In this document: piece by piece, positions 28,530 to 63,474 of the stretch
Layout of the letters: each line of letters opens with the position of its first letter
Position numbering within the stretch: position 1 is the first letter of the stretch
The notes under the pieces: generated by a model
Told to the model about the DNA's origin: nothing
The model's input: only the letters and a program-made list of their open reading frames with translations
The model's database searches: none
Sequence record: KY963424
DNA: 64,000 nucleotides
Strand: one strand, 5' to 3'
DNA from: Shigella phage SSP1
Translations under genes and position numbers: made by a program

Positions 28530-31293
28530 CTAGCTCTGCCATTGCTTCATCATGCATATGTTTCTCCTCGTCAGTCATAAACTTATATGGGATTGGCATA
28601 CACTCGATTTTACAATAAGTTCTGTACCAGTCTACAATATTCTCCGTATTCATATCCTTACCAATACCCATCATACCAAGATACATTCTCGCATATTTTG
28701 GGTTAGCACTCTGACCTGTTTTAAGGAAGAAATCTTTCTTTTTACCTTTCAGAGCTTCTATGAATGGTTTGATAGTGACATTTGAACACTTCTTAATATC
28801 TTCCCAGAACATCTCGTGCATTTTATGGAAAAATGCCGCTCGATCATTCGGTTTATCCTTGATATATTGTTCAACATGCTCAACTGTTACATCTTTAATA
28901 GACTCAAGATGATAGTAGCGAACAAGAAGTAGTTTAGCTTCATACGCATCTGCATGGCGTGGAGCACAATAATCAGGAGTTGAATACAAAATAGCTTTGA
29001 TTCGCTCTTCCGTATATTCCTTCCCAGCACCTTCGATAGTTCCCCAGCTTTCACTGAAAATATCAATAGTTGCACCCTGATCAAGCAAGTAATAACGTAA
29101 AGTACTAGTATAGTTCCTAGATTCCAGCTCCCTACGACGTGCGTATAATTGCTGTGCTAACTCCAGCCAACCTTCATCAATGTTATATTGCTCAGAACCT
29201 GCGGAGAATCCACTCGTAGATTTATCAATAAAATAATAAATGTTCTGAGCGCCACGGTCGCGCCTGATTGCTTGAAAACGCATGTTTGGCGCTTGGTTGC
29301 TGGTTCTAGTAATAACGAATACGTTATCAAAATAGTTGAAGTCAACACCACTAGTTACTGATGGACTACATAATAAGCAATCAATTTGTTGGTCAATTAG
29401 CTCATTAGTTGTGTAATCCAGAATACGTCTAATATCTACATCAGACGTAGAGTTTGAGTGGATTTCCTTAACTAACGCACCCGTATTACGACGCAACGCC
29501 ATGCCCTTCTCATTCAGTTCATCTGGACCACAGTCAGATACTAGGATAGATTTCTCACCCATCTCTAGAGAAGTCTGAAGTGCAACCCAAATACTGGATT
29601 CATCAGGGAACTCATAAGCATGAGCTTTTGACAGCATTTTACGGTGGTGATTATAAAATGCAACCGGTTTATCAAAATCAATTAGAGAACCGTAGGCTTC
29701 AATAGTCTCAGCACTAATATCACCATCGGATAAGATTACAGTTTTAGCTGTCATGAGGATGTCACGTAGAACTTGAATACACTCGCGACGTTGTTTAACA
29801 ACTGGGGCGAATAATAGATCATTCATTACAGCGTCACATTCATCAATAAAGATGGTGTCTATTTGACCAATAAAACTTTTGAACTTATGCAAAGAGTGAA
29901 TAGTTGTGGACATACGATCAATAGCTCCACGTTTAAAGTTGAGCATATCTACAGACTTATCATATTGTCCTGCGCTAAATTTCTTAGCGTTTGAAGATAC
30001 CAGCGCTCTAGTATTTGTAACTGCTAAAAAGTTGCCAGGAAGAACCCCTGCGTCCAGCCATTTAGTTACTGCCGTAGTTTTACCAGTACCAAGACTTGCC
30101 TTAACAAATGTTATATGGCCCTTTGGGGGCACAATGTTAATCTTCAGGTATGGAACTTCTGGTGGAGAATCCACTTCTAATTTCTTGAGTGGAACACCCT
30201 TCAGATTTAATGGAATCTCACGTTTAGAATTATTAACAAACGCTTTGAGAGCCTGCTTACGACCGTTATTAAAGTAATCTTGAATATTACGACTGTTATC
30301 TTTAGTTGCAATATATTCAGATAAAGCGGGTTTAATCTCACGTTCTAGCCATGCGAAATCAACACCATCCTCTAATGCTCTATGGTATAGTTTGGGGATA
30401 ATACGCAAGTACACCCCATCATCAGCTTCTTCCAATTCGCTGATGGTTTCTTCTACTTTATCAGAAGCAATCTTTTTGCCTTTAATTTGATCAAGTAAAG
30501 AATAAAACTCTTCCTTAAACTCCCCTCTAGTTGTTTCATAGTCAACCAGATTATTAGGCAAATTTACCTTCGAACCTTTAACATACACCAGACGTGGCTT
30601 ACTCTCCGCTTTAAACGGATCAACAATACCATCGCTAAATAAAGGGTCGGCAAAATAGTGAAGCTGGACAGATGAATAATAAGCTAAGTCGGCAATATCA
30701 AAACCGAATTTTTGCTTACTACTATCATTGATAGACGTAAATAGGAACTTTAACTGACCTTGAGTTACCTTGACGTTAGATTCTAGCATTAAGTGCATTC
30801 GGATACCTGGTTTTAGGCCAGCCGAAGACGATGCATGAGCAATAAACCCTGCATCAAGAGGAAACATGTCCTCACTAATACTATTCAACATCTTAATAAT
30901 GTGGCGGGCCATACCTACAAGATTAAACTTGTCGTACCCACCGGTATCTATGATACCATCCACGTCCATAGCAATAATATTGCTAGGGTTGGATACATTA
31001 AAGTTACCTTTCTTACGTCGCACATTATTTTTAGGTGCAAGACATCGACCTCGTACCGCAACGATATGAGGGTCAGACGTTAAACGTCTCATAAGTGGTA
31101 ACATTTCGGCAAGGCTTTGCGGGTCATGCTCTTCTATTACATCAAATTTGAAGGGCATAGAAGCTGGTTTACCTTCTGGATGCTCTTTCGAGAATCGTTT
31201 GGCAAAGGTATAATCTTCCGCTTTGATTTCTCGCCAAATACCTGTTGCTAAATCACGAGAAAATCCGGCGTGACCTTGGAGGATAGAAAACAC
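28504..31293 (-). CDS. Putative replication-origin-binding protein / SF2 ATPase (UL9-like)
   Basis: 929 aa; Walker A VKASLGTGKTT, Walker B/DExD IFIDECD; large N-terminal domain. Confidence 0.65.
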   Translation of the reverse strand: MFSILQGHAGFSRDLATGIWREIKAEDYTFAKRFSKEHPEGKPASMPFKFDVIEEHDPQSLAEMLPLMRRLTSDPHIVAVRGRCLAPKNNVRRKKGNFNVSNPSNIIAMDVDGIIDTGGYDKFNLVGMARHIIKMLNSISEDMFPLDAGFIAHASSSAGLKPGIRMHLMLESNVKVTQGQLKFLFTSINDSSKQKFGFDIADLAYYSSVQLHYFADPLFSDGIVDPFKAESKPRLVYVKGSKVNLPNNLVDYETTRGEFKEEFYSLLDQIKGKKIASDKVEETISELEEADDGVYLRIIPKLYHRALEDGVDFAWLEREIKPALSEYIATKDNSRNIQDYFNNGRKQALKAFVNNSKREIPLNLKGVPLKKLEVDSPPEVPYLKINIVPPKGHITFVKASLGTGKTTAVTKWLDAGVLPGNFLAVTNTRALVSSNAKKFSAGQYDKSVDMLNFKRGAIDRMSTTIHSLHKFKSFIGQIDTIFIDECDAVMNDLLFAPVVKQRRECIQVLRDILMTAKTVILSDGDISAETIEAYGSLIDFDKPVAFYNHHRKMLSKAHAYEFPDESSIWVALQTSLEMGEKSILVSDCGPDELNEKGMALRRNTGALVKEIHSNSTSDVDIRRILDYTTNELIDQQIDCLLCSPSVTSGVDFNYFDNVFVITRTSNQAPNMRFQAIRRDRGAQNIYYFIDKSTSGFSAGSEQYNIDEGWLELAQQLYARRRELESRNYTSTLRYYLLDQGATIDIFSESWGTIEGAGKEYTEERIKAILYSTPDYCAPRHADAYEAKLLLVRYYHLESIKDVTVEHVEQYIKDKPNDRAAFFHKMHEMFWEDIKKCSNVTIKPFIEALKGKKKDFFLKTGQSANPKYARMYLGMMGIGKDMNTENIVDWYRTYCKIECMPIPYKFMTDEEKHMHDEAMAELGARNDSEE

Positions 31294-31790
31294 AACAATA
31301 CTCCTGTATTGATTAATCGAAATCTTTTCTTTAGGACTATTCAGAAAGAATAGAACAACTATTACTACTATTTACGTAAACATCAATTATCATCAAACAA
31401 TATGAATAAGTTATCATATCTCAGTGCTGTGCTCTCTTCGCTCATATACAGAATAGAACCTAGGTCATTGGCCGCTAAGCCGATTCTATTTGTCCTCACT
31501 ATCCTATTGGTAGGTGACTACTGTACGTGCCGCCATTCGCTGCTCTTTTCGTTCGCACCCCCATATAAAGCTCTGCCTATATAACGAGCTAAATATGCAC
31601 GGTTTGGATTTACCTTTCCGAATTCAGGGTACACAGATCACTTAATTGAAGATTAACTAATGCAATATAAACACTAGTAATAGTTAAAACAACCCTTAAT
31701 GGGGCAGCCTAACTGTTCCGTATCGCGGATTGTAAACAAGAAAAATTAGCAAAATCAATTTTTACTAATGTCTCTCAATTCAATATAAAT

Positions 31791-31819
31791 ATTATATCAA
31801 GATTTTGGGCATCCTGCAA
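31791..31819 (-). promoter_or_regulatory. Early promoter (TTGCAG-17-TATAAT)
   Basis: Reverse complement TTTTACTTGCAGGATGCCCAAAATCTTGATATAAT; followed by about 480 nt leader before the 929-aa gene. Confidence 0.5.
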
Positions 31820-31913
31820 GTAAAATTTTCCGGATGGTGCTATCATTGGTCTTGAGTACGGGTAAAACCGAGCCAAAATGACTCGGTAATCAGAGTTCAG
31901 CCAATAAAAATCA

Positions 31914-32303
31914 TTAGTCATTTAATCCCGGAACATAGATCCCAACACGGTTTAATTGTTCTTTAGCTTCTTTGAGAATATCTGGAGTGTACTCCCAAAT
32001 ATCATCTTCCACCTGTAAAAGATGGGGCGAACAACCGTCATCCGGCACACGGCATATGGCCAAACCACGTGGGTGGAACAAAGAGAAATTTAGGGCAACA
32101 ATTAAACCCATAGCAGACAATTCATTCCAATCCAATTCCCATTCCCCCGCGTAGCCGGATAGGAAAACACCAACACAGGGATCATCTATTTGCTGCTCCG
32201 GAAAAGTGAAGGAGGCTTGTCTTACCCCCAACCAACGTTGTAGCAGCTTCTCCGCACGTTTCACCAAACTAGGATCAATCTGACGCCAATATACTTGTTC
32301 CAT
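31914..32303 (-). CDS. Hypothetical protein, paralog A (129 aa)
   Basis: Shares ...GxxExxxxELxxMGLxxALNxxLF...VPGL(N/T) architecture with adjacent ORF. Confidence 0.55.
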   Translation of the reverse strand: MEQVYWRQIDPSLVKRAEKLLQRWLGVRQASFTFPEQQIDDPCVGVFLSGYAGEWELDWNELSAMGLIVALNFSLFHPRGLAICRVPDDGCSPHLLQVEDDIWEYTPDILKEAKEQLNRVGIYVPGLND

Positions 32304-32312
32304 TGTGCCCCC

Positions 32313-32741
32313 TTAGGCAGTTAAACCTGGGATCATATACCCGAAACGTCGAAGTTTCTGAATCCCCTCATTTACTTCTTCCGGTGAGTAAGACCAACCA
32401 TAACGTTCATTAACCTGAAAACCAGGAGATTCACTAGTTTTATAGTTAACAACGAGGCGATGCTTAGCAGGCATAAACAGCTTATAGTTTAACGCAAAAA
32501 CTAAGCCCATTTCATCTAACTCTTTCCAGCCGACAATCTCTTCAAGACCCTCCTCTACCTGAACAATTAAACCAATACAGGGAGCCTCATCAATATCATC
32601 TTTAAAAGCAAAGGAGATTTCGTTATTCTCACACCATATTTTCAAAGAGTTAATAGCCTCATTATACAGGCTAGCTGGGAGAGTACGCCAAAAGTTAACC
32701 AAAATTGGATTAGCTTCTTTAGAGAATACATTATTGAACAT
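32313..32741 (-). CDS. Hypothetical protein, paralog B (142 aa)
   Basis: Tandem paralog of 31914..32303. Confidence 0.55.
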   Translation of the reverse strand: MFNNVFSKEANPILVNFWRTLPASLYNEAINSLKIWCENNEISFAFKDDIDEAPCIGLIVQVEEGLEEIVGWKELDEMGLVFALNYKLFMPAKHRLVVNYKTSESPGFQVNERYGWSYSPEEVNEGIQKLRRFGYMIPGLTA

Positions 32742-32743
32742 AT

Positions 32744-33256
32744 TTACACCTTAAATTGTTGTAGGGCTTTACACATTTCAAGATCTGGACTAAATTCTAA
32801 CATATAGCTAACAGCTCTTAAATCTTGAAGATTTATCCCAGTTCTACCATTGACTATAACTGTTGGATACTGATACATCATAGCACCGGCATCATCCAGC
32901 ACACACCAATGTTTGAGCCTATGCTTTTCAACGAAGCGAAGAACAGAATTACCCCTAGATAATCCACCCCCAGTAAAATCCGTTGTACCAAGAAAACGAT
33001 CGATAAGGCCTAATCCGGTCATAATCTGAACGTTCTCCATCTCATTTCTGACAGAGAACCAAGATGATACTCCAACAATCATTATCGGAGAAGGACGAAT
33101 AAAGTCCTGAAAAGCCTTGAGAAGCGGTTTGAAAACCCAGTCACTTCCAAAGAAAATCTTTTCATCATCAGGTGCATGATGGTGGGAGATGCTCGAATTG
33201 AGCACCCCATCAATGTCTAGAAAAATAATTGGAATATTACTTATTTCCTGACACAT
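32744..33256 (-). CDS. HAD-superfamily hydrolase (putative nucleotidase/phosphatase)
   Basis: N-terminal IIFLDIDGVL HAD motif I (DxDGx). Confidence 0.6.
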   Translation of the reverse strand: MCQEISNIPIIFLDIDGVLNSSISHHHAPDDEKIFFGSDWVFKPLLKAFQDFIRPSPIMIVGVSSWFSVRNEMENVQIMTGLGLIDRFLGTTDFTGGGLSRGNSVLRFVEKHRLKHWCVLDDAGAMMYQYPTVIVNGRTGINLQDLRAVSYMLEFSPDLEMCKALQQFKV

Positions 33257-34052
33257 AAGGTCTACCCCCTAAATGAGCTTCTACACGAGCAATAAAATCA
33301 GTATCACTGAAAGCATCTACCGCACCTTTACTCCAGTAAGGGATACCGCGTTCTTCCAGCTGGTACATCTCACTACGAGTCATACCTTGATAGCTCGGTT
33401 CCGCCGCTAGTACACTATCATAGTAGTTAACAACCATAAGTTTCGCAGCAGTCAAATTAAGAACAGGAAATAATTCCCAATAGAAGTTAATTACTTGGTT
33501 AGAGCAACCAACCACAATGATCATATCTTGACTAGTAATACCATCAAAAACATTATACATTTCTGCATACGCTGGAGCATGCTCCCCAAAGAAGACTACA
33601 TTAGGTTTAACCCATTTATAATCATCTGGGTCAATAGAATTGTATCCTACATCAATAATCCGTTTATTGCTACTATTGTAGCTATCAGCTACAACAACCT
33701 CTTTTAAATATCCGTGAATGTGCAGAATGTCACTATGTGGAACGCCAGCACGCTCAATAAGGTCATCAACGTTGGTAGTCAAGTTTACTACTTGACCTGG
33801 GTATTGTTTATACCATTCACCAATACGCAAATGCGCAAGATTGGGTTCAACAGTTTTTAGCTCTTCACGACGCTTGTTGTAAAACATATGGGTTTTATGG
33901 TAAAAATTACCACGAAAGGCATGAATATTACACACTTCTTCTAGATCATAATCATCCCACAATGCTTTACCACTAGCAGTATCAGTACGAAAAGCTCGTA
34001 CACCACTTTCAACACTCAAACCTGCACCGCTAATAATAATTAACCTACGCAC
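33237..34052 (-). CDS. SIR2-family (sirtuin-like) NAD-dependent enzyme
   Basis: LIIISGAGLSVESGVRAFR Rossmann/NAD-binding sirtuin signature; 271 aa. Confidence 0.65.
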   Translation of the reverse strand: MRRLIIISGAGLSVESGVRAFRTDTASGKALWDDYDLEEVCNIHAFRGNFYHKTHMFYNKRREELKTVEPNLAHLRIGEWYKQYPGQVVNLTTNVDDLIERAGVPHSDILHIHGYLKEVVVADSYNSSNKRIIDVGYNSIDPDDYKWVKPNVVFFGEHAPAYAEMYNVFDGITSQDMIIVVGCSNQVINFYWELFPVLNLTAAKLMVVNYYDSVLAAEPSYQGMTRSEMYQLEERGIPYWSKGAVDAFSDTDFIARVEAHLGGRPYVSGNK

Positions 34053-34246
34053 TATACGATTCCTCGCTTAAATCCTTCGATAATATTTCGGAGTAAAATT
34101 GCTTCCTCCGGGCGTACCTTTTCTTGCTTAATAAGCATATCCAATCCAGCAATACAACTAGCTACACCAGCATTATAACCAGAGTTCCATTGCTCAATAA
34201 GCATGTTTTCTAGATTACTTTTTAGACTCTGATTCAAGAAGTCCAT
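34052..34246 (-). CDS. Hypothetical protein (64 aa)
   Basis: Small ORF. Confidence 0.35.
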   Translation of the reverse strand: MDFLNQSLKSNLENMLIEQWNSGYNAGVASCIAGLDMLIKQEKVRPEEAILLRNIIEGFKRGIV

Positions 34247-34418
34247 AAAGTTTCTCCTCTAGTTCCATAACACGATTTTCATAAGAAGCACGCAACTTTT
34301 CAATTGCCAGCGCACGCACTGTAACCTCATTAGAATTAATAGCTAACTGGGCCAGGTCTTCTGTTTCCATACGTCCGTTGTAAATTAAGCGATATTTAAG
34401 ATGTTTTACGTTTTTCAT
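34215..34418 (-). CDS. Hypothetical protein (67 aa)
   Basis: Small ORF. Confidence 0.35.
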   Translation of the reverse strand: MKNVKHLKYRLIYNGRMETEDLAQLAINSNEVTVRALAIEKLRASYENRVMELEEKLYGLLESESKK

Positions 34419-34427
34419 TCTTGTTCC

Positions 34428-34709
34428 TTAGTTCTGTACTGTAAACTCATTCTTATCACAGTGAGCATAATAATACCCATACATACGATAAATTTTCACA
34501 GCCTTAGTAGACCCCTTCGATTCTTCATAATCAATCCAGAGCCACTTGTCTTTACCTACATAATGTACCCGAAACTTCTTAACTTTCTTATCATTCCATG
34601 TTGCAACAACACGACGATAATCAAATCCACCCAACCAATCTAGAGCCTTACGTTCTTCACTAGGCTCTCCAAGATGGGAGACATCTACTTTAGGAAGCAA
34701 CTCGCTCAT
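34428..34709 (-). CDS. Hypothetical protein (93 aa)
   Basis: ORF downstream of early promoter at 34738..34766. Confidence 0.45.
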   Translation of the reverse strand: MSELLPKVDVSHLGEPSEERKALDWLGGFDYRRVVATWNDKKVKKFRVHYVGKDKWLWIDYEESKGSTKAVKIYRMYGYYYAHCDKNEFTVQN

Positions 34710-34737
34710 AGCTTTCTCCTCTCAAATTTATAAATCA

Positions 34738-34766
34738 ATTATACATAAATTTTTGGCTGAAAGCAA
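34738..34766 (-). promoter_or_regulatory. T5-type early promoter (TTGCTT-17-TATAAT + ATAAATTTGAGAGGAG box)
   Basis: Reverse complement TTTATTTGCTTTCAGCCAAAAATTTATGTATAATTGATTTATAAATTTGAGAGGAG. Confidence 0.65.
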
Positions 34767-34808
34767 ATAAAATAAAAGCCAGGTCGACTAGCAACCCGGC
34801 TGATTAGC

Positions 34809-36683
34809 TTATTTAGCTCGAATATCCTGATGTTTCACTCTGCCCATAACCTCGTGCTGTTTGCCGGGGTTAAATGGACGAGCACCCGGATTTCCAAGAT
34901 ACCCACAAACTCGACGAGTTACCTCAAGAGTTTCGGGGTCATGATTACCACAGATAGGGCACTTAAATCCATCTTCGGATGCTATTGTTTCACCTAAGAA
35001 TCCACATTTACCGCAAGAATCCACTGGAGTATTAATACCGAAGTAATGAACTTTACTAGCAGCATAATTAATAACCCATTCCAGTGCATCTGGGAATCGT
35101 TTCATATCTGGTAGTTCTACATAGGAAATGCACCCACCAGAAGCAATCGGAGTGAAATTAGATTCATAATCAAATTTCACGTTAGGAGCAACTTTACGTT
35201 CTACATCAAGGTGGTGAGAGTTAGTGTAGTATCCTTTGGACAGAATATCTTCATGCTCCGGGAAATATTCGCGGTCTAGACGACAAAAACGGTCACATAG
35301 GGATTCTGATGGTGTAGCATACAGGCTATAACCTAATTTAGTTTCTTCCTTCTTCTGATCGACTCTATCCCGCATGTACTGCAATACACGCTGAACAAAC
35401 TTGATGCAGGTCTCGGACATTGTGTCTACATCTTTGCCAAACATAAACTGTAGCATTTCATGGCAACCAATATACCCTAGAGATACAGAAGCACGGTTAT
35501 AGAAATGATCGAATACATACTCATCCGGCTCCAAGCGTAACCCAAAGGCTCCTGACATATAGAGGATGGGTGCAGCTTTAGCTTGAATGTATTTTAAGCG
35601 ATCAACTCTCCACTCCAATGCTTTTAACGCTGTATCCACACGTAGCTCAAGCAAATCAAAGAATAGATCAATATTTCCTTCAGCTTCGATAGCAATTCTA
35701 GGCAAGTTTACAGAAACAACACCTAAGTTATTACGACCGGCAGTTTCACCATCTTCTGTAGCAGCTAGGAATGAACGGCAGCCCATAGAAACTTTATAGT
35801 CACCAGTAACTTCCACAACCTTATCATAGCTGATATAATCTGGATACATACGTTCAGCAGTACATTTCATAGCTAACTTCTTGATGTCATAATTAACATC
35901 TCCTGGTTTCATATTTACGCCATCACGAAGTACAAATACCAGTTTCGGGAAGATAGCTGTACGTTTATTGATACCTAAACCATCCATGCGTACTTTCAGT
36001 ATTGCTTTCTGTACTAGACGTGCTTCCCAAGAAGTTCCTAGACCAAAACCAAAGGTAATAAATGGACTCTGCCCATTAGAGTTGAACATGGTATTGATTT
36101 CATATTCTAAACCCTGACAAGCGTCATAGACTTCTTTTTCAGTCATCTCCGTAGCCATTACGGATGCTTTGGCTTCATCCTTAGTCCAACGTTTTGCAAA
36201 CGCATGATTTTTGTCATAGGATTTACGAACATAAGGGGCTAATACTTCATCAAGGCGATCTACAGAAGTACCACCATACTGATGGGAGCTAACCTGAGTG
36301 ATAATCTGAGCAGTAATAGCCGCCGCAGTAGTGATAGAGTTTGGAGTGCTAATTTCAGCATTACCAACCTTCATGCCATTCTTCAACATATCTTCCAGGG
36401 CCACCAGACAACAGTTAGTCATGCCTAATGCAGCATAATCAGCATCATGGAAATGAATATCCCCAATCATATGAGCATTTCGAATCTGAATTGGCATTTC
36501 TTCTAGAATTAGATACTTACTCAACTCACCTGCAAGCATATCCCTTTGTGTAGGGAAACGTTCTGAGGGTTTATTGGCATTATTAAATAGCAGTTCTTCA
36601 TCTGCTGACCCTTCGATAATCTCTTTGCAGTTTCTAATTAACGCCTGCATTTCTTTATACTTTAGTTCTTCATTACGATTCAT
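34809..36683 (-). CDS. nrdD: Anaerobic ribonucleoside-triphosphate reductase (class III)
   Basis: 624 aa; C-terminal glycyl-radical motif RVCGYLG and Cys4 zinc site CGKCGF...CPICG. Confidence 0.9.
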   Translation of the reverse strand: MNRNEELKYKEMQALIRNCKEIIEGSADEELLFNNANKPSERFPTQRDMLAGELSKYLILEEMPIQIRNAHMIGDIHFHDADYAALGMTNCCLVALEDMLKNGMKVGNAEISTPNSITTAAAITAQIITQVSSHQYGGTSVDRLDEVLAPYVRKSYDKNHAFAKRWTKDEAKASVMATEMTEKEVYDACQGLEYEINTMFNSNGQSPFITFGFGLGTSWEARLVQKAILKVRMDGLGINKRTAIFPKLVFVLRDGVNMKPGDVNYDIKKLAMKCTAERMYPDYISYDKVVEVTGDYKVSMGCRSFLAATEDGETAGRNNLGVVSVNLPRIAIEAEGNIDLFFDLLELRVDTALKALEWRVDRLKYIQAKAAPILYMSGAFGLRLEPDEYVFDHFYNRASVSLGYIGCHEMLQFMFGKDVDTMSETCIKFVQRVLQYMRDRVDQKKEETKLGYSLYATPSESLCDRFCRLDREYFPEHEDILSKGYYTNSHHLDVERKVAPNVKFDYESNFTPIASGGCISYVELPDMKRFPDALEWVINYAASKVHYFGINTPVDSCGKCGFLGETIASEDGFKCPICGNHDPETLEVTRRVCGYLGNPGARPFNPGKQHEVMGRVKHQDIRAK

Positions 36684-36712
36684 TACACCCTCCTTCTCTA
36701 ACTAAGACTACT

Positions 36713-36741
36713 ATTATAACTCATTCGAGGGCGGATGTCAA
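36713..36741 (-). promoter_or_regulatory. Consensus sigma70-like promoter for nrdD (TTGACA-17-TATAAT)
   Basis: Reverse complement TTGACATCCGCCCTCGAATGAGTTATAAT. Confidence 0.6.
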
Positions 36742-36876
36742 TATAATTTTTCTCTTAGATATCGTATTTTGATCTGTGCTAAGAAACTTGATCAGAGTGT
36801 CAAAATTTTATTGACACCACCGTAACTTTTGTATAAGATATACACATAATTTAAGAAATTTGACAAGGAAATAAAA

Positions 36877-37368
36877 ATGAACACTGAAATAACACAAGAC
36901 CTACTAAGAACTTACTTTGACTATAAAGATGGAGAATTGTTTTACAAACCAACTTATAAAACCCCTGCAGGAAGAATATCCAAAAAAGCAGGTAAATCCG
37001 CCAGACTAACTCCGAGTAACGGGTACTATCGTATAAATGTACCAAGAATAGGTGTACAGAAAGAACATAGGATGATTTTCCTATATCATGAAGGATACCT
37101 ACCAGAAGTAGTAGATCATATTGATAGGGATAAGGAAAATAATAGGATAGAGAACCTTAGGGCATCTAATCTTCAGGACAACGCTATTAATCGCTCCATA
37201 AGTAAGAGTAACACCTCTGGCATTGTGGGTGTCCATTATGATGAATCGTATGGTAAGTGGGTTGTAACGTATAGGGGTAAGTACTTTGGAAGATTTGATA
37301 CCAAAGAAGAAGCTGCCGAAGTTAATGCTAATGTTCGTGCCCTTGATCAAACCCGTATAAATAGTTGA
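36877..37368 (+). CDS. HNH homing endonuclease with AP2 DNA-binding domain
   Basis: VDHIDRDKENNRIENLRASNLQDNAIN (HNH) followed by GVHYDESYGKWVVTYRGKYFGRFDTKEEAA (AP2-like). Confidence 0.75.
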   Translation: MNTEITQDLLRTYFDYKDGELFYKPTYKTPAGRISKKAGKSARLTPSNGYYRINVPRIGVQKEHRMIFLYHEGYLPEVVDHIDRDKENNRIENLRASNLQDNAINRSISKSNTSGIVGVHYDESYGKWVVTYRGKYFGRFDTKEEAAEVNANVRALDQTRINS

Positions 37369-37451
37369 TTATCTAGTATCACACATCTCCCGTTAAAAGC
37401 AAGCAAATTTTTTATTTAAATGCAATATCATAGGCTTATTTAAAATTGTAG

Positions 37452-37480
37452 TTGCTTTTTACTGTATATATTGGTATAAT
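37452..37480 (+). promoter_or_regulatory. T5-type early promoter (TTGCTT-17-TATAAT)
   Basis: AAAATTGTAGTTGCTTTTTACTGTATATATTGGTATAAT. Confidence 0.6.
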
Positions 37481-37553
37481 ATATTTGTAAGTTGATAAAC
37501 AAGATCTTTTTGTTGATCCTCTGTTAGCGAAGTACACTATAGGAGTGTTATTT

Positions 37554-38306
37554 ATGGGAAAAGCACGTCAAAAAAGAGAGAACCGCAATGGTTCAAGAAA
37601 GCGTGGCAACAAATATGAGAACAACGTAATTCAGGCTGATTTTTCTAATGATTACGCTAATCCAGTTGCTAAATCCCTAGTAGGTAAAAACCGCGAGCAA
37701 AAATCATATATCAATATGATCAAGAACAACACAGTGACTGTGGGTATCGGTGAGCCAGGTACTGGTAAAACCTTTATTCCGTCCGTTCTTGCAGCTCAGG
37801 AACTCGTAGACATTCACTCAGATATTGAGCAAGTGATCCTCGTACGTCCTAATGAACCTCTAGGTAAGTCTCTTGGTATGCTTCCTGGTGATCTAGCGGA
37901 AAAGCTAGAGCCTTGGTTAGAGCCAATAGCTGATGGTATGAAATGGGCCATCGGCGATCATGCGTATAAAGGATATGTCGAACGTCAGAAAATTAAATTT
38001 TTGGCTGTCGAACATGCTCGTGGCAGAACTTTCAACAACTCCTATGTAATTGTCGATGAAGCTCAGAATATTTCCGTTGAGGCAATGATTTGTCTCCTAA
38101 CTCGTGTAGGACAAGACTGCCGTTTAATTATCTGCGGAGATATAGCTCAGAAAGACATTAAAGGTGACTCAGGTCTAGCACTCCTTATGGAAGTCTATGA
38201 AAAATACGAAAATGCCCCATTCTCAATGATCGAATTGATTGATAACGTTCGTTCTGTTGAGTCTAAAGCATTCTATGATATTTTTAAAGACATGGGGAAG
38301 GTGTAA
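37554..38306 (+). CDS. phoH: PhoH-like ATPase
   Basis: Walker A GEPGTGKT, Walker B VIVDEAQN; ATG with AGGAG RBS (ORF track starts at GTG 37545). Confidence 0.8.
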   Translation: MGKARQKRENRNGSRKRGNKYENNVIQADFSNDYANPVAKSLVGKNREQKSYINMIKNNTVTVGIGEPGTGKTFIPSVLAAQELVDIHSDIEQVILVRPNEPLGKSLGMLPGDLAEKLEPWLEPIADGMKWAIGDHAYKGYVERQKIKFLAVEHARGRTFNNSYVIVDEAQNISVEAMICLLTRVGQDCRLIICGDIAQKDIKGDSGLALLMEVYEKYENAPFSMIELIDNVRSVESKAFYDIFKDMGKV

Positions 38307-38307
38307 T

Positions 38308-38550
38308 ATGGGAAACGTCGTTCATCTGAGCCGTAAAACTAAAATACATCGTACTTCACTGAGTGCTGCTAATATGATTACACGTAAGGAAGGGGAAGAA
38401 AGTCCTAAGACAACCCTAGCGTGGAAAATTGTAACCTCAAATCCAAATAAACCATTCAATTATAACGAGTTGAGCACCTCCATAGATATTCTATTAAAAG
38501 AGGCAGCTAGAGCTAAAGTAATTGAACAAGCTAAAAAGCTAGACTGGTAA
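38308..38550 (+). CDS. Hypothetical protein (80 aa)
   Basis: ATG with GGGGAAGG RBS immediately after phoH stop. Confidence 0.45.
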   Translation: MGNVVHLSRKTKIHRTSLSAANMITRKEGEESPKTTLAWKIVTSNPNKPFNYNELSTSIDILLKEAARAKVIEQAKKLDW

Positions 38551-38671
38551 TATACAGGGCCTGGGTATGAAAATACTCGGGCCTTTTCTATCAGAAAATT
38601 TTATTTGCCTAATGACCGATAATAAAGTAGAATATTCCTTAAATCCTGATAACTATAAAAAGGAAAGCCAA

Positions 38672-51182: not shown

Positions 51183-51254
51183 GCCGTCCTAGTATAATTG
51201 GTATTATCAAGCCGTAACTGGTGGAAGATGTAGGTTCGAATCCTACGGTCGGTA
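51183..51254 (+). ncRNA. tRNA-like element (canonical T-arm, 6/7 acceptor pairs, no recognisable anticodon arm)
   Basis: GTAGG-TTCGAAT-CCTAC T-arm; 5' GCCGTCC pairs with 3' GGTCGGT except one U-U; D- and anticodon regions do not fold canonically. Confidence 0.35.
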
Positions 51255-55384: not shown

Positions 55385-55462
55385 GGTTCTCAAGCTCATA
55401 TGGTATGAGCACCCGGCTCATAACCGGAAGGTACGTAGGTTCGAATCCTCGGGGAGCCACCA
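55385..55462 (+). tRNA. tRNA with CAT anticodon (Met or Ile2)
   Basis: Acceptor GGTTCTC/GGGAGCC (with G-U pairs), D-stem GCTC/GAGC, anticodon loop CTCATAA, T-loop TTCGAAT with imperfect stem, CCA encoded. Confidence 0.6.
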
Positions 55463-58900: not shown

Positions 58901-59002
58901 AATTCTGTGTAGAGTTAAGTAAACCGGTAGCCAACCAGCTATCATTGCTGATATCGAATTCAGCCACAGATACCATTTTCATTAATAACTGAGGAAACAA
59001 GC

Positions 59003-59868: not shown

Positions 59869-60216
59869 ATGATTAATGCTAAAGAAGAATTGTTACTTGC
59901 CCTAAAGAATATTAATTCTGAAGTTAAGTGTATTAAGATAGAATTCGGTTATTATGGGGACAAAGAAGTTTGGGTATTACCCATAGGTTATACAGAAAAA
60001 GATATTGAAGATTTTCTAAATAATCTAGACTTTAAATATGATTCTGGTTTCGGTGGACAATTGCTTTATGGTAACGTATGGTTTACTGATGGAACTTGGT
60101 TAGAACGTGGTGAATATGATGGTTCTGAATGGTGGGAATATAAGACTACACCGGCAATCCCAGAAGAATGCCGAACAATTAATGGTGAAGTAGATAATAC
60201 TTTACGGTTAAACTAA
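59869..60216 (+). CDS. Hypothetical protein (115 aa)
   Basis: ORF with Trp/Gly-rich C-terminus. Confidence 0.5.
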   Translation: MINAKEELLLALKNINSEVKCIKIEFGYYGDKEVWVLPIGYTEKDIEDFLNNLDFKYDSGFGGQLLYGNVWFTDGTWLERGEYDGSEWWEYKTTPAIPEECRTINGEVDNTLRLN

Positions 60217-60220
60217 TAAA

Positions 60221-60329
60221 ATTTCAGTGCAGAACACGGAGCTAGCAATTCGGAAGTGCTGACTCATGATAAGCTGCCTATGTACTTGCTAAGCGGTCGT
60301 GTCCAAGACTCGGACTCTTGCACTGAAAA
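60221..60329 (+). ncRNA. Structured RNA candidate closed by about 11-bp terminal stem
   Basis: TTTCAGTGCAG (60222-60232) is complementary to CTTGCACTGAAA (60317-60328); internal hairpin GTCC-AAGACTC-GGAC; no ORF. Confidence 0.35.
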
Positions 60330-60338
60330 CAATCAAAC

Positions 60339-60459
60339 ATTCTAGCGTGGTTGATGGAGAAACCAGCTTGGCGAGGGCAGAAGCTCGTTCGATTCGAGTG
60401 AAAGAATGGTTCTCGTAAGTCCGCACAAGTGATAACAGGTTCGAGTCCTGTCTAGAATG
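60339..60459 (+). ncRNA. 121-nt tRNA-like RNA (perfect acceptor stem + canonical T-arm, oversized body)
   Basis: 5' ATTCTAG pairs with 3' CTAGAAT; T-arm ACAGG-TTCGAGT-CCTGT; second internal T-arm-like hairpin GCTCG-TTCGATT-CGAGT; no CCA encoded. Confidence 0.4.
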
Positions 60460-60469
60460 ACACTATAAA

Positions 60470-60592
60470 GTTTACTTATTATGTAGGTTCCGATAGATCG
60501 GCGGGTCTATTCTGGCATTTAAGAGAGGTCTCGCAAACTTCTTTGTCAGCCGTGGGGTTCATAGCCTCCAGGTGGCCTACACAATAAGTAAA
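60470..60592 (+). ncRNA. Structured RNA candidate closed by 14-bp terminal stem
   Basis: ACTTATTATGTAGG (60474-60487) pairs with CCTACACAATAAGT (60576-60589) with one mismatch; internal palindromes; no ORF. Confidence 0.35.
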
Positions 60593-60608
60593 TTTATTAA
60601 AAATTCAT

Positions 60609-60638
60609 TTGCTATTCTGCTTTATTATCTGTATAATA
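60609..60638 (+). promoter_or_regulatory. T5-type early promoter (TTGCTA-18-TATAAT)
   Basis: AAAAATTCATTTGCTATTCTGCTTTATTATCTGTATAAT. Confidence 0.6.
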
Positions 60639-60669
60639 TATTTTATAAAGTGAAGAGAAGGAAAGCTAA

Positions 60670-60867
60670 ATGAAGAAAGTTTTATTACTATCTGTATTCC
60701 TACTTACTGGTTGTTTTAAATTTGACTCAACCATTAATAAAGAGTATGAATTTGCTAAAAATTTCTGTGGCGGAGAGAGTAATATAAAGAATTTCTACAT
60801 ATATAGTACAATTCCTAGTACCGTTTATTGTGTAGACGGACGAATTATTAATATTCCTCCACAATAA
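60670..60867 (+). CDS. Small lipoprotein (65 aa)
   Basis: MKKVLLLSVFLLTGC lipoprotein signal peptide with lipobox LTGC; GAGAAGGAAAGCTAAATG RBS. Confidence 0.55.
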   Translation: MKKVLLLSVFLLTGCFKFDSTINKEYEFAKNFCGGESNIKNFYIYSTIPSTVYCVDGRIINIPPQ

Positions 60868-61351: not shown

Positions 61352-61589
61352 ATTTATATAAATTGATGGGGAGAAATCCTCATCATAGTTCACTAAGGTA
61401 TTAGCTCGACCTAGGACTGGCTGCCAAAAAGCACGATCCCTACGATTCGGGAGAAGTTCTAGATTAGTCCACTAGATTCAGTGGCAACTGAGTAGTGTAT
61501 CGGGTTTGCGAGATGACGCGGTTCCTTCCGCTTGAAGCGAAGGTGCTGTAGTTACGCCGAGCTAATAGCCTTAGTAAACTAAAGAATTT

Positions 61590-61753: not shown

Positions 61754-61865
61754 AATTTGATGGTCAGAGTAAAATAAACCTACTATCTCGGTTGAGCTGT
61801 TTTAATGGGTTCGAATCCCAGCGAGGCGTAACTGCCTGGTGTGATAGAGGCATCATCTTATTATT

Positions 61866-61956
61866 GGAAGAGCAAATCGAATTGGCGACGAAAACCGCTT
61901 GGAAAGTGGCTGACTGGTAAAACGGCTTGAGAGTTCAAATCTCTCCTCTTCCGCCA
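61866..61956 (+). tRNA. tRNA-Ser(GGA), type II
   Basis: Acceptor GGAAGAG/CTCTTCC perfect, anticodon loop TTGGAAA, long variable arm, T-arm GAGAG-TTCAAAT-CTCTC, CCA encoded; D region irregular. Confidence 0.6.
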
Positions 61957-61978
61957 AACAATTTATATGGTAGGTCAA

Positions 61979-62073
61979 TCCAACGGCTGGCGCTGGACTC
62001 CGACTTGAAATCGGTTGATCGTAGTGATACGGTGTAAGGGTTCGATCCCCTTACCTACCTCCAAATCTTGAAG
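61979..62073 (+). tRNA. tRNA-Ser(TGA), type II
   Basis: Acceptor GGTAGGT/ACCTACC perfect, anticodon arm CCGA-CTTGAAA-TCGG, long variable arm, T-arm AAGGG-TTCGATC-CCCTT, CCA encoded. Confidence 0.7.
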
Positions 62074-62439
62074 TATGCCGGAATCGGTAGACGGGGCTGC
62101 CTAAAAGGTTTATAGGGAACATCCACTCCCTGCAATATACCTCATAAAGCGGCTGAGATAAATGGTCTATCTCGTGAAGGTTCAAGTCCTTCTACTTCTT
62201 GATATATCAATGGCTCAAAGTGTAACGGTGCTATTTGATGCGCTTGGAAAGACTTCCCCGACATGCGTTCGGGAGTAAGCTACTAAGGCTAGAGTAGAAG
62301 AGTTTCGGAGAGCCGCCACAATTGAAAATTCGTACTCGTCTTGAGCTGCGTGCAATAGGAGATAACTTGATTAGTATTCTAGAACATGCTAATTGAGGAA
62401 GGTTTCGCTAACCCTGCGAGTTTTCAATTGTGGCTATAT
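62074..62439 (+). ncRNA. ORF-less segment with degenerate tRNA-like pieces and a 14-bp long-range stem
   Basis: T-arm GAAGG-TTCAAGT-CCTTC without matching acceptor; ...GAGAGCC-G-CCA 3'-end-like motif at 62308-62318; GCCACAATTGAAAA (62314-62327) is the exact reverse complement of TTTTCAATTGTGGC (62431-62444). Confidence 0.3.
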
Positions 62440-62913: not shown

Positions 62914-63474
62914 ATGAAAATAATTCCTGAATTTCCAAACTATAGTATAACTGAGGATGGTAAGGTATGGTCTAAAAATATTAATGCATTTTTATCTCCA
63001 TATGTTAATAACTCAGGATACCCATGCTATAAACTCCACAAGAATGGTATTCAGTACACACAGTCTATCCATAGATTACTTGCTAGAGTGTATAAGGGTT
63101 TACCTTCACTAGACTCTGAACTAGAGGTAGATCATAAAGATACCGATCCTTCTAATTATAGTTTAGATAATATACAAGTTCTAAGTAAAGAAGAACACTT
63201 GAAGAAAACCCTTCAAGATAGGAAACAGTTGCCTTATAATACTATTTGCCCACTTTGCTCAGGCTACAAAGATCCTGGTGCTTCTAAGTGTAAGAAATGT
63301 TCTTCTTTATCACAAGTAAAAGATAAATCTGTTACCGTAGAACAGATCGAATACTGGGTTAAAAACTATTCTTGGGTAAGAGCTGGAAAGGAATTAGGTT
63401 ATTCAGATAGTGGATTACGTAAACGTTATAAAGCTCTTACTGGTAAAGACCCTAAACAAATAAAATGCGGTTAG
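62914..63474 (+). CDS. HNH homing endonuclease (NUMOD4-like N-terminus + HNH)
   Basis: EFPNYSITEDGKVWS; IHRLLARVY...EVDHKDTDPSNYSLDNIQVLSKEEHLKKT; paralog of 59196..59777; stop overlaps tRNA-Gly. Confidence 0.7.
   Translation: MKIIPEFPNYSITEDGKVWSKNINAFLSPYVNNSGYPCYKLHKNGIQYTQSIHRLLARVYKGLPSLDSELEVDHKDTDPSNYSLDNIQVLSKEEHLKKTLQDRKQLPYNTICPLCSGYKDPGASKCKKCSSLSQVKDKSVTVEQIEYWVKNYSWVRAGKELGYSDSGLRKRYKALTGKDPKQIKCG

What the first reader, a model, noticed from the sequence alone, without database searches (positions are those of the whole stretch)
60217..60600. Three consecutive 100-125 nt RNAs closed by long terminal stems, one with tRNA-like acceptor and T-arm
Between the ORF ending at 60216 and the promoter at 60609 there is no ORF. 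Instead there are three back-to-back units: 60221..60329 (about 11-bp terminal stem), 60339..60459 (perfect 7-bp acceptor-like stem ATTCTAG/CTAGAAT plus canonical T-arm, but 121 nt long and carrying a second T-arm-like hairpin), and 60470..60592 (14-bp terminal stem, one mismatch). This resembles the small stable RNAs of unknown function known from phage tRNA clusters. Their function here is open: tRNA mimics or decoys for host tRNA-targeting nucleases, processing scaffolds, or tRNAs with inserted elements.
Basis: seen in the sequence. Interest (0 to 1): 0.7.

Follow-up and report, generated by a model that had tools for sequence, protein, structure and literature searches.

The report
Known T5 phage stable RNAs
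This gene-free stretch of a T5-like phage holds two small stable RNAs already annotated in phage T5 (tRNA-like RNA2 and RNA IV) plus an unannotated structured spacer; their existence is not new, but their function is still unknown.

Summary
The window is a Tequintavirus, 96.9% identical to T5 here. Unit 2 (60338-60462) is the ortholog of T5 'rna2', annotated as a tRNA-like stable RNA of unknown function. The core of unit 3 (60481-60583) is T5 'rnaIV'. Both are annotated in GenBank AY543070, AY692264 and BF23 AJ604530. Unit 1 (60221-60329) is annotated nowhere.

Comparative analysis adds structure. RNA2 is a complete cloverleaf (acceptor, D, anticodon-type stem, T arm) backed by covariation across five Demerecviridae lineages. 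Its anticodon loop is expanded to 55 nt and carries a second, covarying T-arm hairpin and the invariant CUCGUAAnUCCGCA. With 48 nt removed, ARAGORN calls it tRNA-Arg(CCG). RNA IV is a four-way junction (22 of 46 pairs covary) inside a 20-pair stem, with a homolog in a Pectobacterium phage.

Unit 1 is a sharply bounded module, at least 94% identical in 218 phages. Only its terminal stem is supported.

All three lie inside a deletion carried by a viable T5 variant. Function remains open. My best guess is non-decoding tRNA mimics matured by tRNA-processing enzymes.

Verdict: already known, moderate-to-low interest.

The parts
59869..60216 (+). Upstream ORF of 115 aa, homolog of T5.067. It is the left boundary of the RNA block.
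   Evidence: One search lists the ORF. It matches PHROG 3972 (unknown function, E = 6.6e-42) and has no Pfam hit.
60221..60329 (+). Unit 1: a conserved structured spacer module closed by an 11-pair terminal stem (60222-60232 with 60318-60328). It contains an invariant hairpin GTCC-AAGACTC-GGAC. It is not annotated as an RNA in any T5 or BF23 record.
   Evidence: Inverted repeat I20. Fold z = -1.2. Present in 218 phage records, all at least 93.9% identical. Its 5' boundary falls at AAATTTCAG in three different upstream contexts. Its substitutions mostly break the MFE inner hairpins.
60338..60462 (+). RNA2 ortholog, a tRNA-like stable RNA of 125 nt. Acceptor 60339-60345 / 60452-60458, with C60338 able to pair G60459. 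D stem 60348-60351 / 60362-60365. Anticodon-type stem 60366-60370 / 60426-60430. T arm 60435-60451. 3' tail ACA 60460-60462.
   Evidence: 96% identical to T5 rna2 over 125 nt. Covariation: 96.5% of cells paired, 18 of 30 pairs with double changes, 0 of 500 shuffles as good. Genuine tRNAs align end to end to its model.
60371..60425 (+). The 55-nt expansion that replaces the anticodon loop of RNA2. It holds helix Pa (GGGC 60375-60378 with GTCC 60419-60422), the second T-arm hairpin (60383-60399, loop TTCGATT), the conserved stretch GAAAGAATGG, and the invariant CTCGTAA (60412-60418) and TCCGCA (60420-60425).
   Evidence: Invariant columns. The hairpin stem reads CUCG/CGAG, CUUG/CAAG, CUGG/CCAG and UACGG/CCGUA in different lineages. 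Pa pair 44:90 switches between C-G and U-A. ARAGORN treats 48 nt of this stretch as an intron.
60471..60592 (+). Unit 3: the RNA IV precursor-like hairpin. The outer stem P1 (60471-60480 with 60583-60592) flanks the annotated mature RNA IV.
   Evidence: Inverted repeat I3. Fold z = -4.8. The P1 sequence is conserved even in the Pectobacterium phage DU_PP_V.
60481..60583 (+). RNA IV ortholog, 103 nt, a four-way junction. P2 60482-60491 / 60571-60581. P3 60492-60499 / 60504-60511 with loop GGCG. P4 60512-60516 / 60545-60549. P5 60522-60529 / 60537-60544 with 7-nt loop CTCGCAA (60530-60536). P6 60554-60558 / 60564-60568.
   Evidence: 96% identical to T5 rnaIV. Covariation: 98.6% of cells paired, 22 of 46 pairs with double changes, 0 of 500 shuffles as good. 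The model scores 151 bits on the + strand and 27 bits on the - strand.
60609..60637 (+). Sigma-70-type promoter, equivalent to T5 early promoter P13a. It is the right boundary of the block.
   Evidence: TTGCTA-17-TATAAT, 10 of 12 matches. Promoter P13a is annotated at the same place in T5 and BF23.

Best explanation
The stretch belongs to the early tRNA operon of a T5-like phage. It encodes two small stable RNAs already described for T5, preceded by a structured spacer.

RNA2 (60338-60462) is a tRNA-derived cloverleaf, possibly descended from a tRNA-Arg(CCG)-type gene. Its 7-nt anticodon loop is replaced by a conserved 55-nt arm capped by a second T-loop hairpin. I infer that RNase P and 3' trimming cut it from the polycistronic transcript as they cut its tRNA neighbours. 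I also infer that it is stable because it folds like a tRNA. It cannot decode, because it has no anticodon loop. I infer that it acts in trans as a tRNA mimic through its invariant expansion.

RNA IV (60481-60583) is a four-way-junction RNA sitting on a stem of about 20 pairs. It is plausibly released by a double-strand-specific cut of the RNase III type.

Unit 1 is most likely a structured 5' spacer or processing module attached to RNA2, not a third stable RNA.

Shown here: identity with the T5 RNAs, the secondary structures, and the strand. Inferred: the maturation route and every functional statement.
For: Identity: rna2 and rnaIV are annotated as stable RNAs in AY543070, AY692264 and AJ604530. 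They map to the window at 96% identity.

RNA2 structure: all 7 acceptor pairs covary, as do 3 of 4 D-stem pairs, 3 of 5 anticodon-stem pairs and 3 of 5 T-stem pairs. 96.5% of cells are paired, against 28-42% when partners are slid, and 0 of 500 shuffles do as well.

tRNA frame: real tRNAs match the RNA2 covariance model over positions 1-127 at 19-28 bits. The sequence with 48 nt removed passes ARAGORN's default threshold as tRNA-Arg(CCG). The Klebsiella-phage orthologs receive the same call with a 47-nt insertion at a relaxed 90% threshold.

Context: in several genera RNA2 sits 3-8 nt from flanking tRNAs. In Sugarlandvirus it carries an encoded CCA.

Selection on the expansion: CUCGUAAnUCCGCA and GGG are invariant across lineages whose acceptor stems have been completely replaced. 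The second T hairpin covaries.

RNA IV: 22 of 46 pairs covary. Every helix is compensated in DU_PP_V, while the loops GGCG and CUCGCA are kept. Scoring is strand-specific.
Against: No expression data were available here. The mature ends come only from GenBank annotation.

Rfam finds nothing in 60150-60680 even at E <= 10. ARAGORN's default mode finds nothing.

RNA2 departs from tRNA rules. It has C rather than U at position 8. No CCA is encoded in T5-like phages. The candidate anticodon residues UCC are paired in helix Pa.

A third helix in the expansion has no register common to all lineages.

The whole block lies inside the T5Mos deletion 30661-38625, and T5Mos is a viable phage. PARIS sensitivity of a smaller tRNA-region deletion mutant (T5 123, which retains this block) was rescued by tRNA-Lys alone (PMC11464382). 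So no phenotype is attached to these RNAs.

RNase III involvement rests only on the stem geometry.
Confidence: 0.6

Rival explanations
1. These are cis-acting punctuation elements. The long terminal stems and tRNA-like folds exist only to guide RNase P, RNase III or RNase E cleavage of the polycistronic early transcript and to insulate neighbouring tRNAs and mRNAs. The released pieces are stable by-products with no function of their own.
For: Elements of 100-170 nt closed by long stems recur in spacers across the tRNA region: 60222-60328, 60468-60595, 61399-61567, 62315-62434 and 63186-63309. The stem at 62315-62434 pairs the 3' end of the RNA I homolog with the 5' end of tRNA-His. Unit 1 is not annotated as a stable RNA. 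The block is dispensable.
Against: A punctuation role would not require invariant single-stranded motifs (CUCGUAAnUCCGCA in RNA2; GGCG and CUCGCA loops in RNA IV) to persist across subfamilies while all helices are rewritten. tRNAs in the same clusters are separated by only 3-8 nt without such elements.
Confidence: 0.2
2. RNA2 is a functional tRNA-Arg(CCG) gene interrupted by a 48-nt intron-like insertion. The insertion is removed to give a decoding tRNA.
For: ARAGORN calls tRNA-Arg(CCG) with a 48-nt intron at 90% of its threshold. It calls the artificially spliced 73-mer at the default threshold. UCCGCA is invariant in all homologs.
Against: The species annotated as stable in T5 and BF23 is the full 125 nt. 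The insertion would lie between positions 32 and 33, not at the canonical 37/38 site. The insertion is far shorter than the group I introns known in bacterial tRNA genes, and Rfam finds no ribozyme or intron family there even at E <= 10. UCC is paired with the invariant GGG in Pa. Position 37 would be C and position 8 is C. ARAGORN's intron mode at this threshold gives many false chimeras in the same run.
Confidence: 0.04
3. These are decaying tRNA pseudogenes and neutral spacer DNA left behind by rearrangements that homing endonucleases drive in the tRNA region.
For: The region is mosaic. tRNA-Gly and other modules are inserted between units 2 and 3 in BF23 and Epseptimavirus. Unit 1 is present or absent. 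Homing endonuclease genes lie nearby. The block is dispensable in the laboratory.
Against: Compensatory changes occur in nearly every helix of RNA2 and RNA IV, and loop motifs are invariant across genera. This pattern indicates purifying selection on RNA structure.
Confidence: 0.06
4. Unit 1 is a small mobile element of the MITE type. What looks like a terminal stem is really a pair of terminal inverted repeats.
For: It is either present at 94% identity or more, or absent, even in phages whose adjacent RNA2 is much more diverged. Its 5' edge is sharp in three different contexts. It has 10-nt perfect inverted termini.
Against: It is essentially single-copy: 220 places in 218 records. It was always found directly 5' of RNA2. 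No target-site duplication flanks the termini. Its 3' part (CGGACTCT...) is homologous to the leader found upstream of RNA2 in phages that lack unit 1.
Confidence: 0.08

Closest known systems
Bacteriophage T5 RNA2 (gene rna2) and RNA IV (gene rnaIV), annotated as misc_RNA in GenBank AY543070, AY692264 and BF23 AJ604530
   Same: They are orthologs. Identity is 96% over the full 125 nt and 103 nt. Order, strand and neighbours are the same: the T5.067 ORF upstream and promoter P13a downstream.
   Different: Nothing substantive differs; the window is a close T5 relative. The GenBank notes say only 'tRNA-like' and 'unknown functions'.
Phage T4 species 1 and species 2 stable RNAs (rnaC, rnaD) in the T4 tRNA cluster. 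This comparison is from my own knowledge and was not tested here.
   Same: They are small stable RNAs of roughly 120-140 nt encoded among phage tRNA genes. They are co-transcribed and processed with the tRNAs, are non-essential, and their function has been unknown for decades.
   Different: No sequence relationship was tested or is expected. T4 is an unrelated phage. The RNA2 architecture (a cloverleaf with an expanded anticodon arm and a second T loop) is not known to me for the T4 RNAs.
Canonical tRNA (Rfam RF00005), specifically tRNA-Arg(CCG)
   Same: RNA2 has a 7-bp acceptor stem, a D arm with a GG-containing loop, a 5-bp anticodon-type stem, a 4-nt variable loop, and a 5-bp T stem with a TTCGAGT loop. 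tRNAs align end to end to the RNA2 model. The spliced form is called tRNA-Arg(CCG).
   Different: RNA2 has 55 nt in place of the 7-nt anticodon loop, C at position 8, and no encoded CCA in T5-like phages. It has no Rfam hit and no default ARAGORN hit.
Bacterial Y-RNA-like tRNA mimics (YrlA) and the tRNA-like domain of tmRNA
   Same: These are non-decoding RNAs that reuse T-arm and acceptor-like modules and are handled by tRNA enzymes (my own knowledge).
   Different: Rfam found no match even at E <= 10, and ARAGORN's tmRNA mode found nothing. In RNA2 the 5' and 3' ends form the acceptor stem. In YrlA the ends form the Ro-binding stem. RNA2 has no tag reading frame.
Engineered 'tRNA scaffold' RNAs, in which the anticodon arm is replaced by a cargo RNA for stable expression in E. 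coli (my own knowledge)
   Same: The topology is the same: an intact acceptor, D and T body with a foreign structured insert where the anticodon loop would be.
   Different: RNA2 is natural and evolutionarily conserved, and its cargo is of unknown function.

Membership tests
T5 RNA2 (rna2) | Sequence orthology over the full annotated 125-nt RNA, in the same genomic position | tested here: met
   96.0% identity over positions 1-125 at window 60338-60462. The synteny matches that of AY543070.
T5 RNA IV (rnaIV) | Sequence orthology over the full annotated 103-nt RNA, directly upstream of promoter P13a | tested here: met
   96.1% identity over positions 1-103 at window 60481-60583. The promoter is at 60609-60637.
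T5 stable RNAs | Accumulation as a discrete stable transcript in infected cells | not testable with these tools
   The only support is the GenBank notes 'stable RNA with unknown functions'. The open-access library held no primary paper on this.
tRNA (RF00005) | Acceptor, D, anticodon and T stems in cloverleaf order, with covariation | tested here: met
   tRNAs align end to end to model R1.
tRNA (RF00005) | A 7-nt anticodon loop presenting an anticodon | tested here: not met
   55 nt lie between the two strands of the anticodon-type stem (60371-60425). The UCC of the putative anticodon region pairs with GGG.
tRNA (RF00005) | Reaches the family score with standard detectors | tested here: not met
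   No Rfam match even at E <= 10. ARAGORN default finds nothing. It is detected only at 90% of threshold with an intron allowed.
tRNA (RF00005) | Aminoacylation and a 3' CCA end | not testable with these tools
   The sequence after G60459 is ACA in the window, ACC in DU_PP_V and UCCA in Sugarlandvirus. Charging is unknown.
tmRNA | A tRNA-like domain plus a tag-peptide reading frame | tested here: not met
   ARAGORN -m at 90% of threshold finds nothing. Rfam finds nothing.
YrlA / bacterial Y RNA | Match to the Rfam model; Ro-binding stem formed by the RNA termini | tested here: not met
   No Rfam match at E <= 10. The termini form a tRNA acceptor stem instead.
Intron-containing tRNA | The insertion is removed to yield a mature tRNA of about 75 nt | not testable with these tools
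   The annotated stable species is 125 nt. The inferred insertion site 32/33 is non-canonical.

The most novel reading that the evidence does not exclude
RNA2 is a natural 'tRNA scaffold' whose expanded anticodon arm builds a second tRNA-elbow-like T-loop module. Together with RNA IV and RNA1, which share a CUCG(Y)(R)A motif, it would act in trans. It might work as a decoy or sponge for a tRNA-binding host factor or a tRNA-directed defence nuclease. That would make it a non-coding counter-defence complementing the phage's nuclease-resistant tRNAs.
Probability: 0.12. Interest if true: 0.75.

Novelty: already known. Interest (0 to 1): 0.3.

Why it matters
T5-like phages carry the largest tRNA arrays among well-studied coliphages. 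Recent work showed that individual T5 tRNAs neutralise tRNA-cleaving defence systems: tRNA-Lys against PARIS, and tRNA-Tyr against retron Eco7 (PMC11464382; PMC10644984).

The stable non-tRNA RNAs embedded in the same operon are still annotated as being of unknown function. Here they are shown to be under clear structural and sequence selection across several Demerecviridae genera. The covariation-backed models now define which residues to mutate: the second T loop, CUCGUAA/UCCGCA, and the GGCG and CUCGCAA loops. They also define which species to look for.

As a discovery, however, the finding is not new. Its value lies in pointing at an old, neglected question.

Tried and rejected
1. Rfam, all 4227 families, on 60150-60680 at E <= 10: no match. 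ARAGORN default and tmRNA modes: nothing.

2. ARAGORN intron mode across the tRNA region at 90% of threshold gave many chimeric false calls. The intron call on RNA2 is therefore treated only as a description of the tRNA frame, not as evidence of splicing.

3. A third helix in the RNA2 expansion was examined: AGAA/UUCU in T5-like phages, against UGAGA/UCUCG in Klebsiella phages and UGAG/CUCG in DU_PP_V. No common register exists, so it is not claimed.

4. The MFE pairing CGAGGGC/GGUUCUCG was rejected. Many T5-like phages have CUAGGG at that position. RNAalifold and covariation favour GCUUG/CAAGU plus GGGC/GUCC instead.

5. The MFE helix UGGC/GCCG in RNA IV was rejected in favour of CUGGC/GUCAG. 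Only the latter is compensated in S124, bobsandoy and L019.

6. The inner hairpins of unit 1 were examined. Substitutions at MFE-paired positions more often break a pair than preserve it, and none is compensated, so no inner structure is claimed.

7. The MITE reading of unit 1 was considered and judged unlikely (see rivals).

8. Pattern scans found no RNA2 signature in 185,579 bacterial and archaeal species genomes. Metagenome hits were T5-like or Sugarlandvirus-like, plus a few chance matches.

9. Literature searches for primary descriptions of the T5 stable RNAs found none in the open library.

10. Flanking proteins gave no RNA-related domains.

11. RNA IV homologs were not found in 26 kb of a Sugarlandvirus or in 14 kb of phage Kamaji with default filters.

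Full report
WHAT THE WINDOW IS

The region lies in a cluster of 18-20 tRNA genes, all on the + strand. BLAST of 60217-60600 against phage genomes finds 467 records, nearly all Demerecviridae. Identity to phage T5 is 96.9% and reaches 99.5% for other Tequintavirus isolates. The window is therefore a close T5 relative, and this is its early tRNA region.

CHECK OF THE OBSERVATION

No ORF above 45 aa lies in 60217-60600 on either strand. The ORF ending at 60216 is the homolog of T5.067. The promoter-like site at 60609-60637 (TTGCTA-17-TATAAT) is the best in the neighbourhood and coincides with T5 promoter P13a.

All three terminal complementarities exist:
- Unit 1: 60222-60231 with 60319-60328, 10/10 complementary plus a G-U pair (I20).
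- Unit 2: ATTCTAG (60339-60345) with CTAGAAT (60452-60458).
- Unit 3: 60468-60487 with 60576-60595, 20 nt at 90% complementarity (I3).

Folding energy alone separates them. Unit 3 has z = -4.8, while units 1 and 2 have z of about -1.1 to -1.2.

THESE RNAs ARE ALREADY ANNOTATED

GenBank AY543070 (T5) carries two relevant misc_RNA features:
- 'rna2', product RNA2, noted as a 'tRNA-like stable RNA with unknown functions' (32959-33083).
- 'rnaIV', noted as a 'stable RNA with unknown functions' (32838-32940).

AY692264 and the BF23 tRNA-region record AJ604530 carry the same two features. A third T5 record, AY587007, annotates only the promoter there. In the window these RNAs map to 60338-60462 (96.0% over 125 nt) and 60481-60583 (96.1% over 103 nt).

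So unit 2 is RNA2, and unit 3 is RNA IV plus ten flanking pairs on each side. Unit 1 falls in the unannotated gap between T5.067 and rna2 in all of these records.

The window also contains the homologs of T5 rna1 (62067-62211), rna2H (61399-61570) and rna3 (58903-58975).

RNA2 STRUCTURE

I collected orthologs from Tequintavirus, Epseptimavirus, Hongcheonvirus (Pectobacterium phage DU_PP_V), Sugarlandvirus (Klebsiella phages), Serratia phage Kamaji and metagenomes.

RNAalifold did not reproduce the single-sequence MFE. Instead it paired the five bases that follow the D arm (GCUUG, 60366-60370) with CAAGU (60426-60430). That stem reads GCUGU/GCAGU, GCCAU/GUGGU, GCCUG/CAGGU and GCCUC/GAGGU in other lineages.

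Counting pairs on a 13-sequence MAFFT alignment gives the following:
- 95.1% of cells are paired.
- 18 of 30 pairs have changes on both sides.
- 0 of 500 shuffles do as well.
- Only 28-42% of cells pair when partners are slid by 1-3 columns.

On a 28-distinct-row model-based alignment the values are 96.5%, 18 of 30 and 0 of 500. All seven acceptor pairs covary: ATTCTAG/CTAGAAT, TACGGGG/TCCCGTA, TATGGGA/TCCCGTA and GGGTACT/GGTATCC.

RNA2 is therefore a genuine cloverleaf with a 7-bp acceptor stem, a 4-bp D stem, a 5-bp anticodon-type stem, a 4-nt variable loop and a canonical T arm.

Two reciprocal tests agree. First, a covariance model built from RNA2 matches real tRNAs end to end at 19-28 bits by skipping the insertion. 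Second, the sequence with 48 nt deleted passes ARAGORN's default threshold as tRNA-Arg(CCG). The intact sequence is called only at 90% of threshold with an intron allowed. That mode is noisy.

THE RNA2 EXPANSION

In place of a 7-nt anticodon loop there are 55 nt (60371-60425). Within this stretch:
- GGG pairs with UCC in helix Pa. A fourth pair switches between C-G and U-A.
- A second T-arm hairpin (60383-60399) has a conserved loop UUCGAUU or UUCAAUU. Its stem reads CUCG/CGAG, CUUG/CAAG, CUGG/CCAG or UACGG/CCGUA depending on lineage.
- The stretch CUCGUAAnUCCGCA is invariant in every homolog.

This invariance holds in lineages whose acceptor stems have been completely rewritten. That argues for selection on the expansion itself. 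A possible third helix has no register common to all lineages, so I do not claim it.

One short variant (L035) lacks the second T hairpin.

The T5 annotation starts RNA2 one base before the acceptor stem (C60338) and ends it at ACA. C60338 can pair with G60459, giving an 8-bp acceptor stem of the tRNA-His type. This is seen directly in the sequence; its meaning is an inference.

RNA IV STRUCTURE

The mature 103-nt RNA is a four-way junction:
- a closing stem, P2;
- P3, 8 bp with a GGCG loop;
- a long arm, P4 plus P5, ending in the 7-nt loop CUCGCAA;
- a variable hairpin, P6.

Epseptimavirus variants (S124, bobsandoy, atrejo) supply compensatory changes. A covariance model also found a homolog in DU_PP_V at 45.5 bits. 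It lies about 190 nt downstream of that phage's RNA2, so synteny is preserved. Every helix in that homolog is rewritten while the loops GGCG and CUCGCA are kept.

On 29 distinct sequences, 98.6% of cells pair, 22 of 46 pairs have double changes, and 0 of 500 shuffles do as well. The model scores 151 bits on the + strand and 27 bits on the - strand, so the structure belongs to the + strand RNA.

The ten outer pairs (P1, 60471-60480 with 60583-60592) never vary, even in DU_PP_V. They are neither supported nor contradicted by covariation. With P2 they make about 20 nearly continuous pairs around the annotated ends. For that reason I suggest an RNase III-type release. This is inference only.

UNIT 1

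Unit 1 occurs in 218 phage records, always at 93.9% identity or more. This holds even where the adjacent RNA2 has diverged far more.

Its 5' edge falls at the base of the terminal stem (AAATTTCAG...) in three unrelated upstream contexts: the T5.067 ORF end, the atrejo leader and the TrudiGerster leader. Wherever it was seen, it directly precedes RNA2. Its 3' part shares CGGACTCT and downstream bases with the about 70-nt leader that precedes RNA2 in phages lacking unit 1.

The few substitutions available mostly break the MFE inner hairpins and are never compensated. Only the terminal stem and the GUCC/GGAC hairpin are constant.

I conclude that unit 1 is a discrete, conserved module. There is no evidence that it is a third stable RNA. 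A structured spacer or processing element attached to RNA2 is the most economical reading. Similar spacers closed by long stems occur at 62315-62434 (z = -6) and 63186-63309.

FUNCTION

Nothing here establishes function. PMC11464382 reports that T5Mos carries a deletion of 30661-38625 (AY543070 coordinates) and still infects cells lacking PARIS. That deletion removes rna2, rnaIV and the unit 1 region. The same paper reports that PARIS sensitivity of T5 123, a smaller tRNA-region deletion mutant that retains this block, was rescued by T5 tRNA-Lys alone. The block is therefore dispensable in the laboratory.

RNA2 has tRNA-like spacing to its neighbouring tRNAs, a full tRNA body and an encoded CCA in Sugarlandvirus. 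From this I infer maturation by the tRNA-processing machinery. Because loop motifs are conserved while helices are rewritten, I favour a trans-acting, non-decoding tRNA-mimic role over pure punctuation or decay. The confidence for the functional part is modest.

COMPARISON AND NOVELTY

The closest known entities are the T5 RNAs themselves, and membership is met. T4 species 1 and 2 RNAs are functional analogues (my own knowledge, not tested here). RNA2 meets the cloverleaf criteria of a tRNA but fails on the anticodon loop and on detector scores, so it is tRNA-like and not a tRNA. tmRNA and YrlA membership tests fail.

The finding is already known as an object.
- the covariation-supported secondary structures;
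- the recognition that RNA2 is a complete cloverleaf with an expanded anticodon arm and a second T loop;
- the distribution beyond T5-like phages;
- the status of unit 1.

Noticed in passing
window 62315-62434: A 120-nt element closed by an 18-20-bp stem (arms 94% complementary, fold z = -6.0). It fills the spacer between the RNA I homolog (62212-62318, ending GCCGCCA) and tRNA-His (62430-). The stem pairs the last bases of RNA I with the first bases of tRNA-His. I did not check whether it is annotated in T5.
   Followed up: partly
window 63186-63309: A 124-nt element with 15-nt terminal inverted arms (93% complementary, fold z = -3.0), lying between tRNA-Gln and tRNA-Gly. It is another spacer closed by a long stem.
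   Followed up: partly
window 58903-58975, 61399-61570, 62067-62211, 62212-62318: Homologs of the other T5 misc_RNAs are present: rna3 (98.6%), rna2H (97.7%, with a 10-bp terminal stem) and rna1 (86%). The stretch where T5 has RNA I is also present. The window thus carries the whole set of T5 'stable RNAs of unknown function'.
   Followed up: partly
window 62150-62180 (rna1) compared with 60379-60418 (RNA2) and 60527-60536 (RNA IV): A motif is shared. The RNA1 variable-arm hairpin GAGAUA-AAUGGUC-UAUCUC-GUGA resembles the RNA2 expansion, most clearly in Klebsiella phages (GAGAUA[T hairpin]AAAUGGUCUCGUAA). The RNA IV loop CUCGCAA resembles the invariant CUCGUAA of RNA2. This could be common descent, a common ligand, or chance.
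   Followed up: no
window 61865-61958: A stretch of about 94 nt that matches the RNA2/tRNA covariance model end to end (18.5 bits, E = 0.013). Neither ARAGORN nor Rfam calls it at gathering score. T5 has tRNA-Ser genes near the corresponding position, so it may be a degenerate or unusual tRNA.
   Followed up: no
window 55385-55459 and 51183-51254: Two tRNAs reach the Rfam gathering score (40.3 and 35.5 bits) but ARAGORN does not call them.
   Followed up: no
L051 (Salmonella phage S124) 611-712: A roughly 100-nt tRNA-like sequence lies between tRNA-Gly and RNA IV. It has acceptor GTGGAGA/TCTCCAC, a 3' ACCA, a canonical T arm and an over-long central region containing CTCCGGA. It is unannotated and may be another expanded tRNA-like RNA.
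   Followed up: no
L002 (atrejo) about 935-1035; L052 about 610-715; L054 (DU_PP_V) between 14550 and 14737: A conserved module (AAACAAGGC..AGTT.CCGGCCG.TTCT..GCT.AAAATC...GTAAACGAAAG) sits between RNA2 or tRNA-Gly and RNA IV in Epseptimavirus and DU_PP_V. BF23 has a spacer of similar size at that position, whose sequence I did not inspect. The module is absent from the window and from T5.
   Followed up: no
L033 (SH9) and L054 (DU_PP_V), the 70 nt upstream of RNA2: The leader between tRNA-Lys(CUU) and RNA2 is almost identical in an Epseptimavirus and a Hongcheonvirus, which belong to different subfamilies. Their RNA2 expansions differ more. This suggests recent lateral exchange in the tRNA region.
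   Followed up: no
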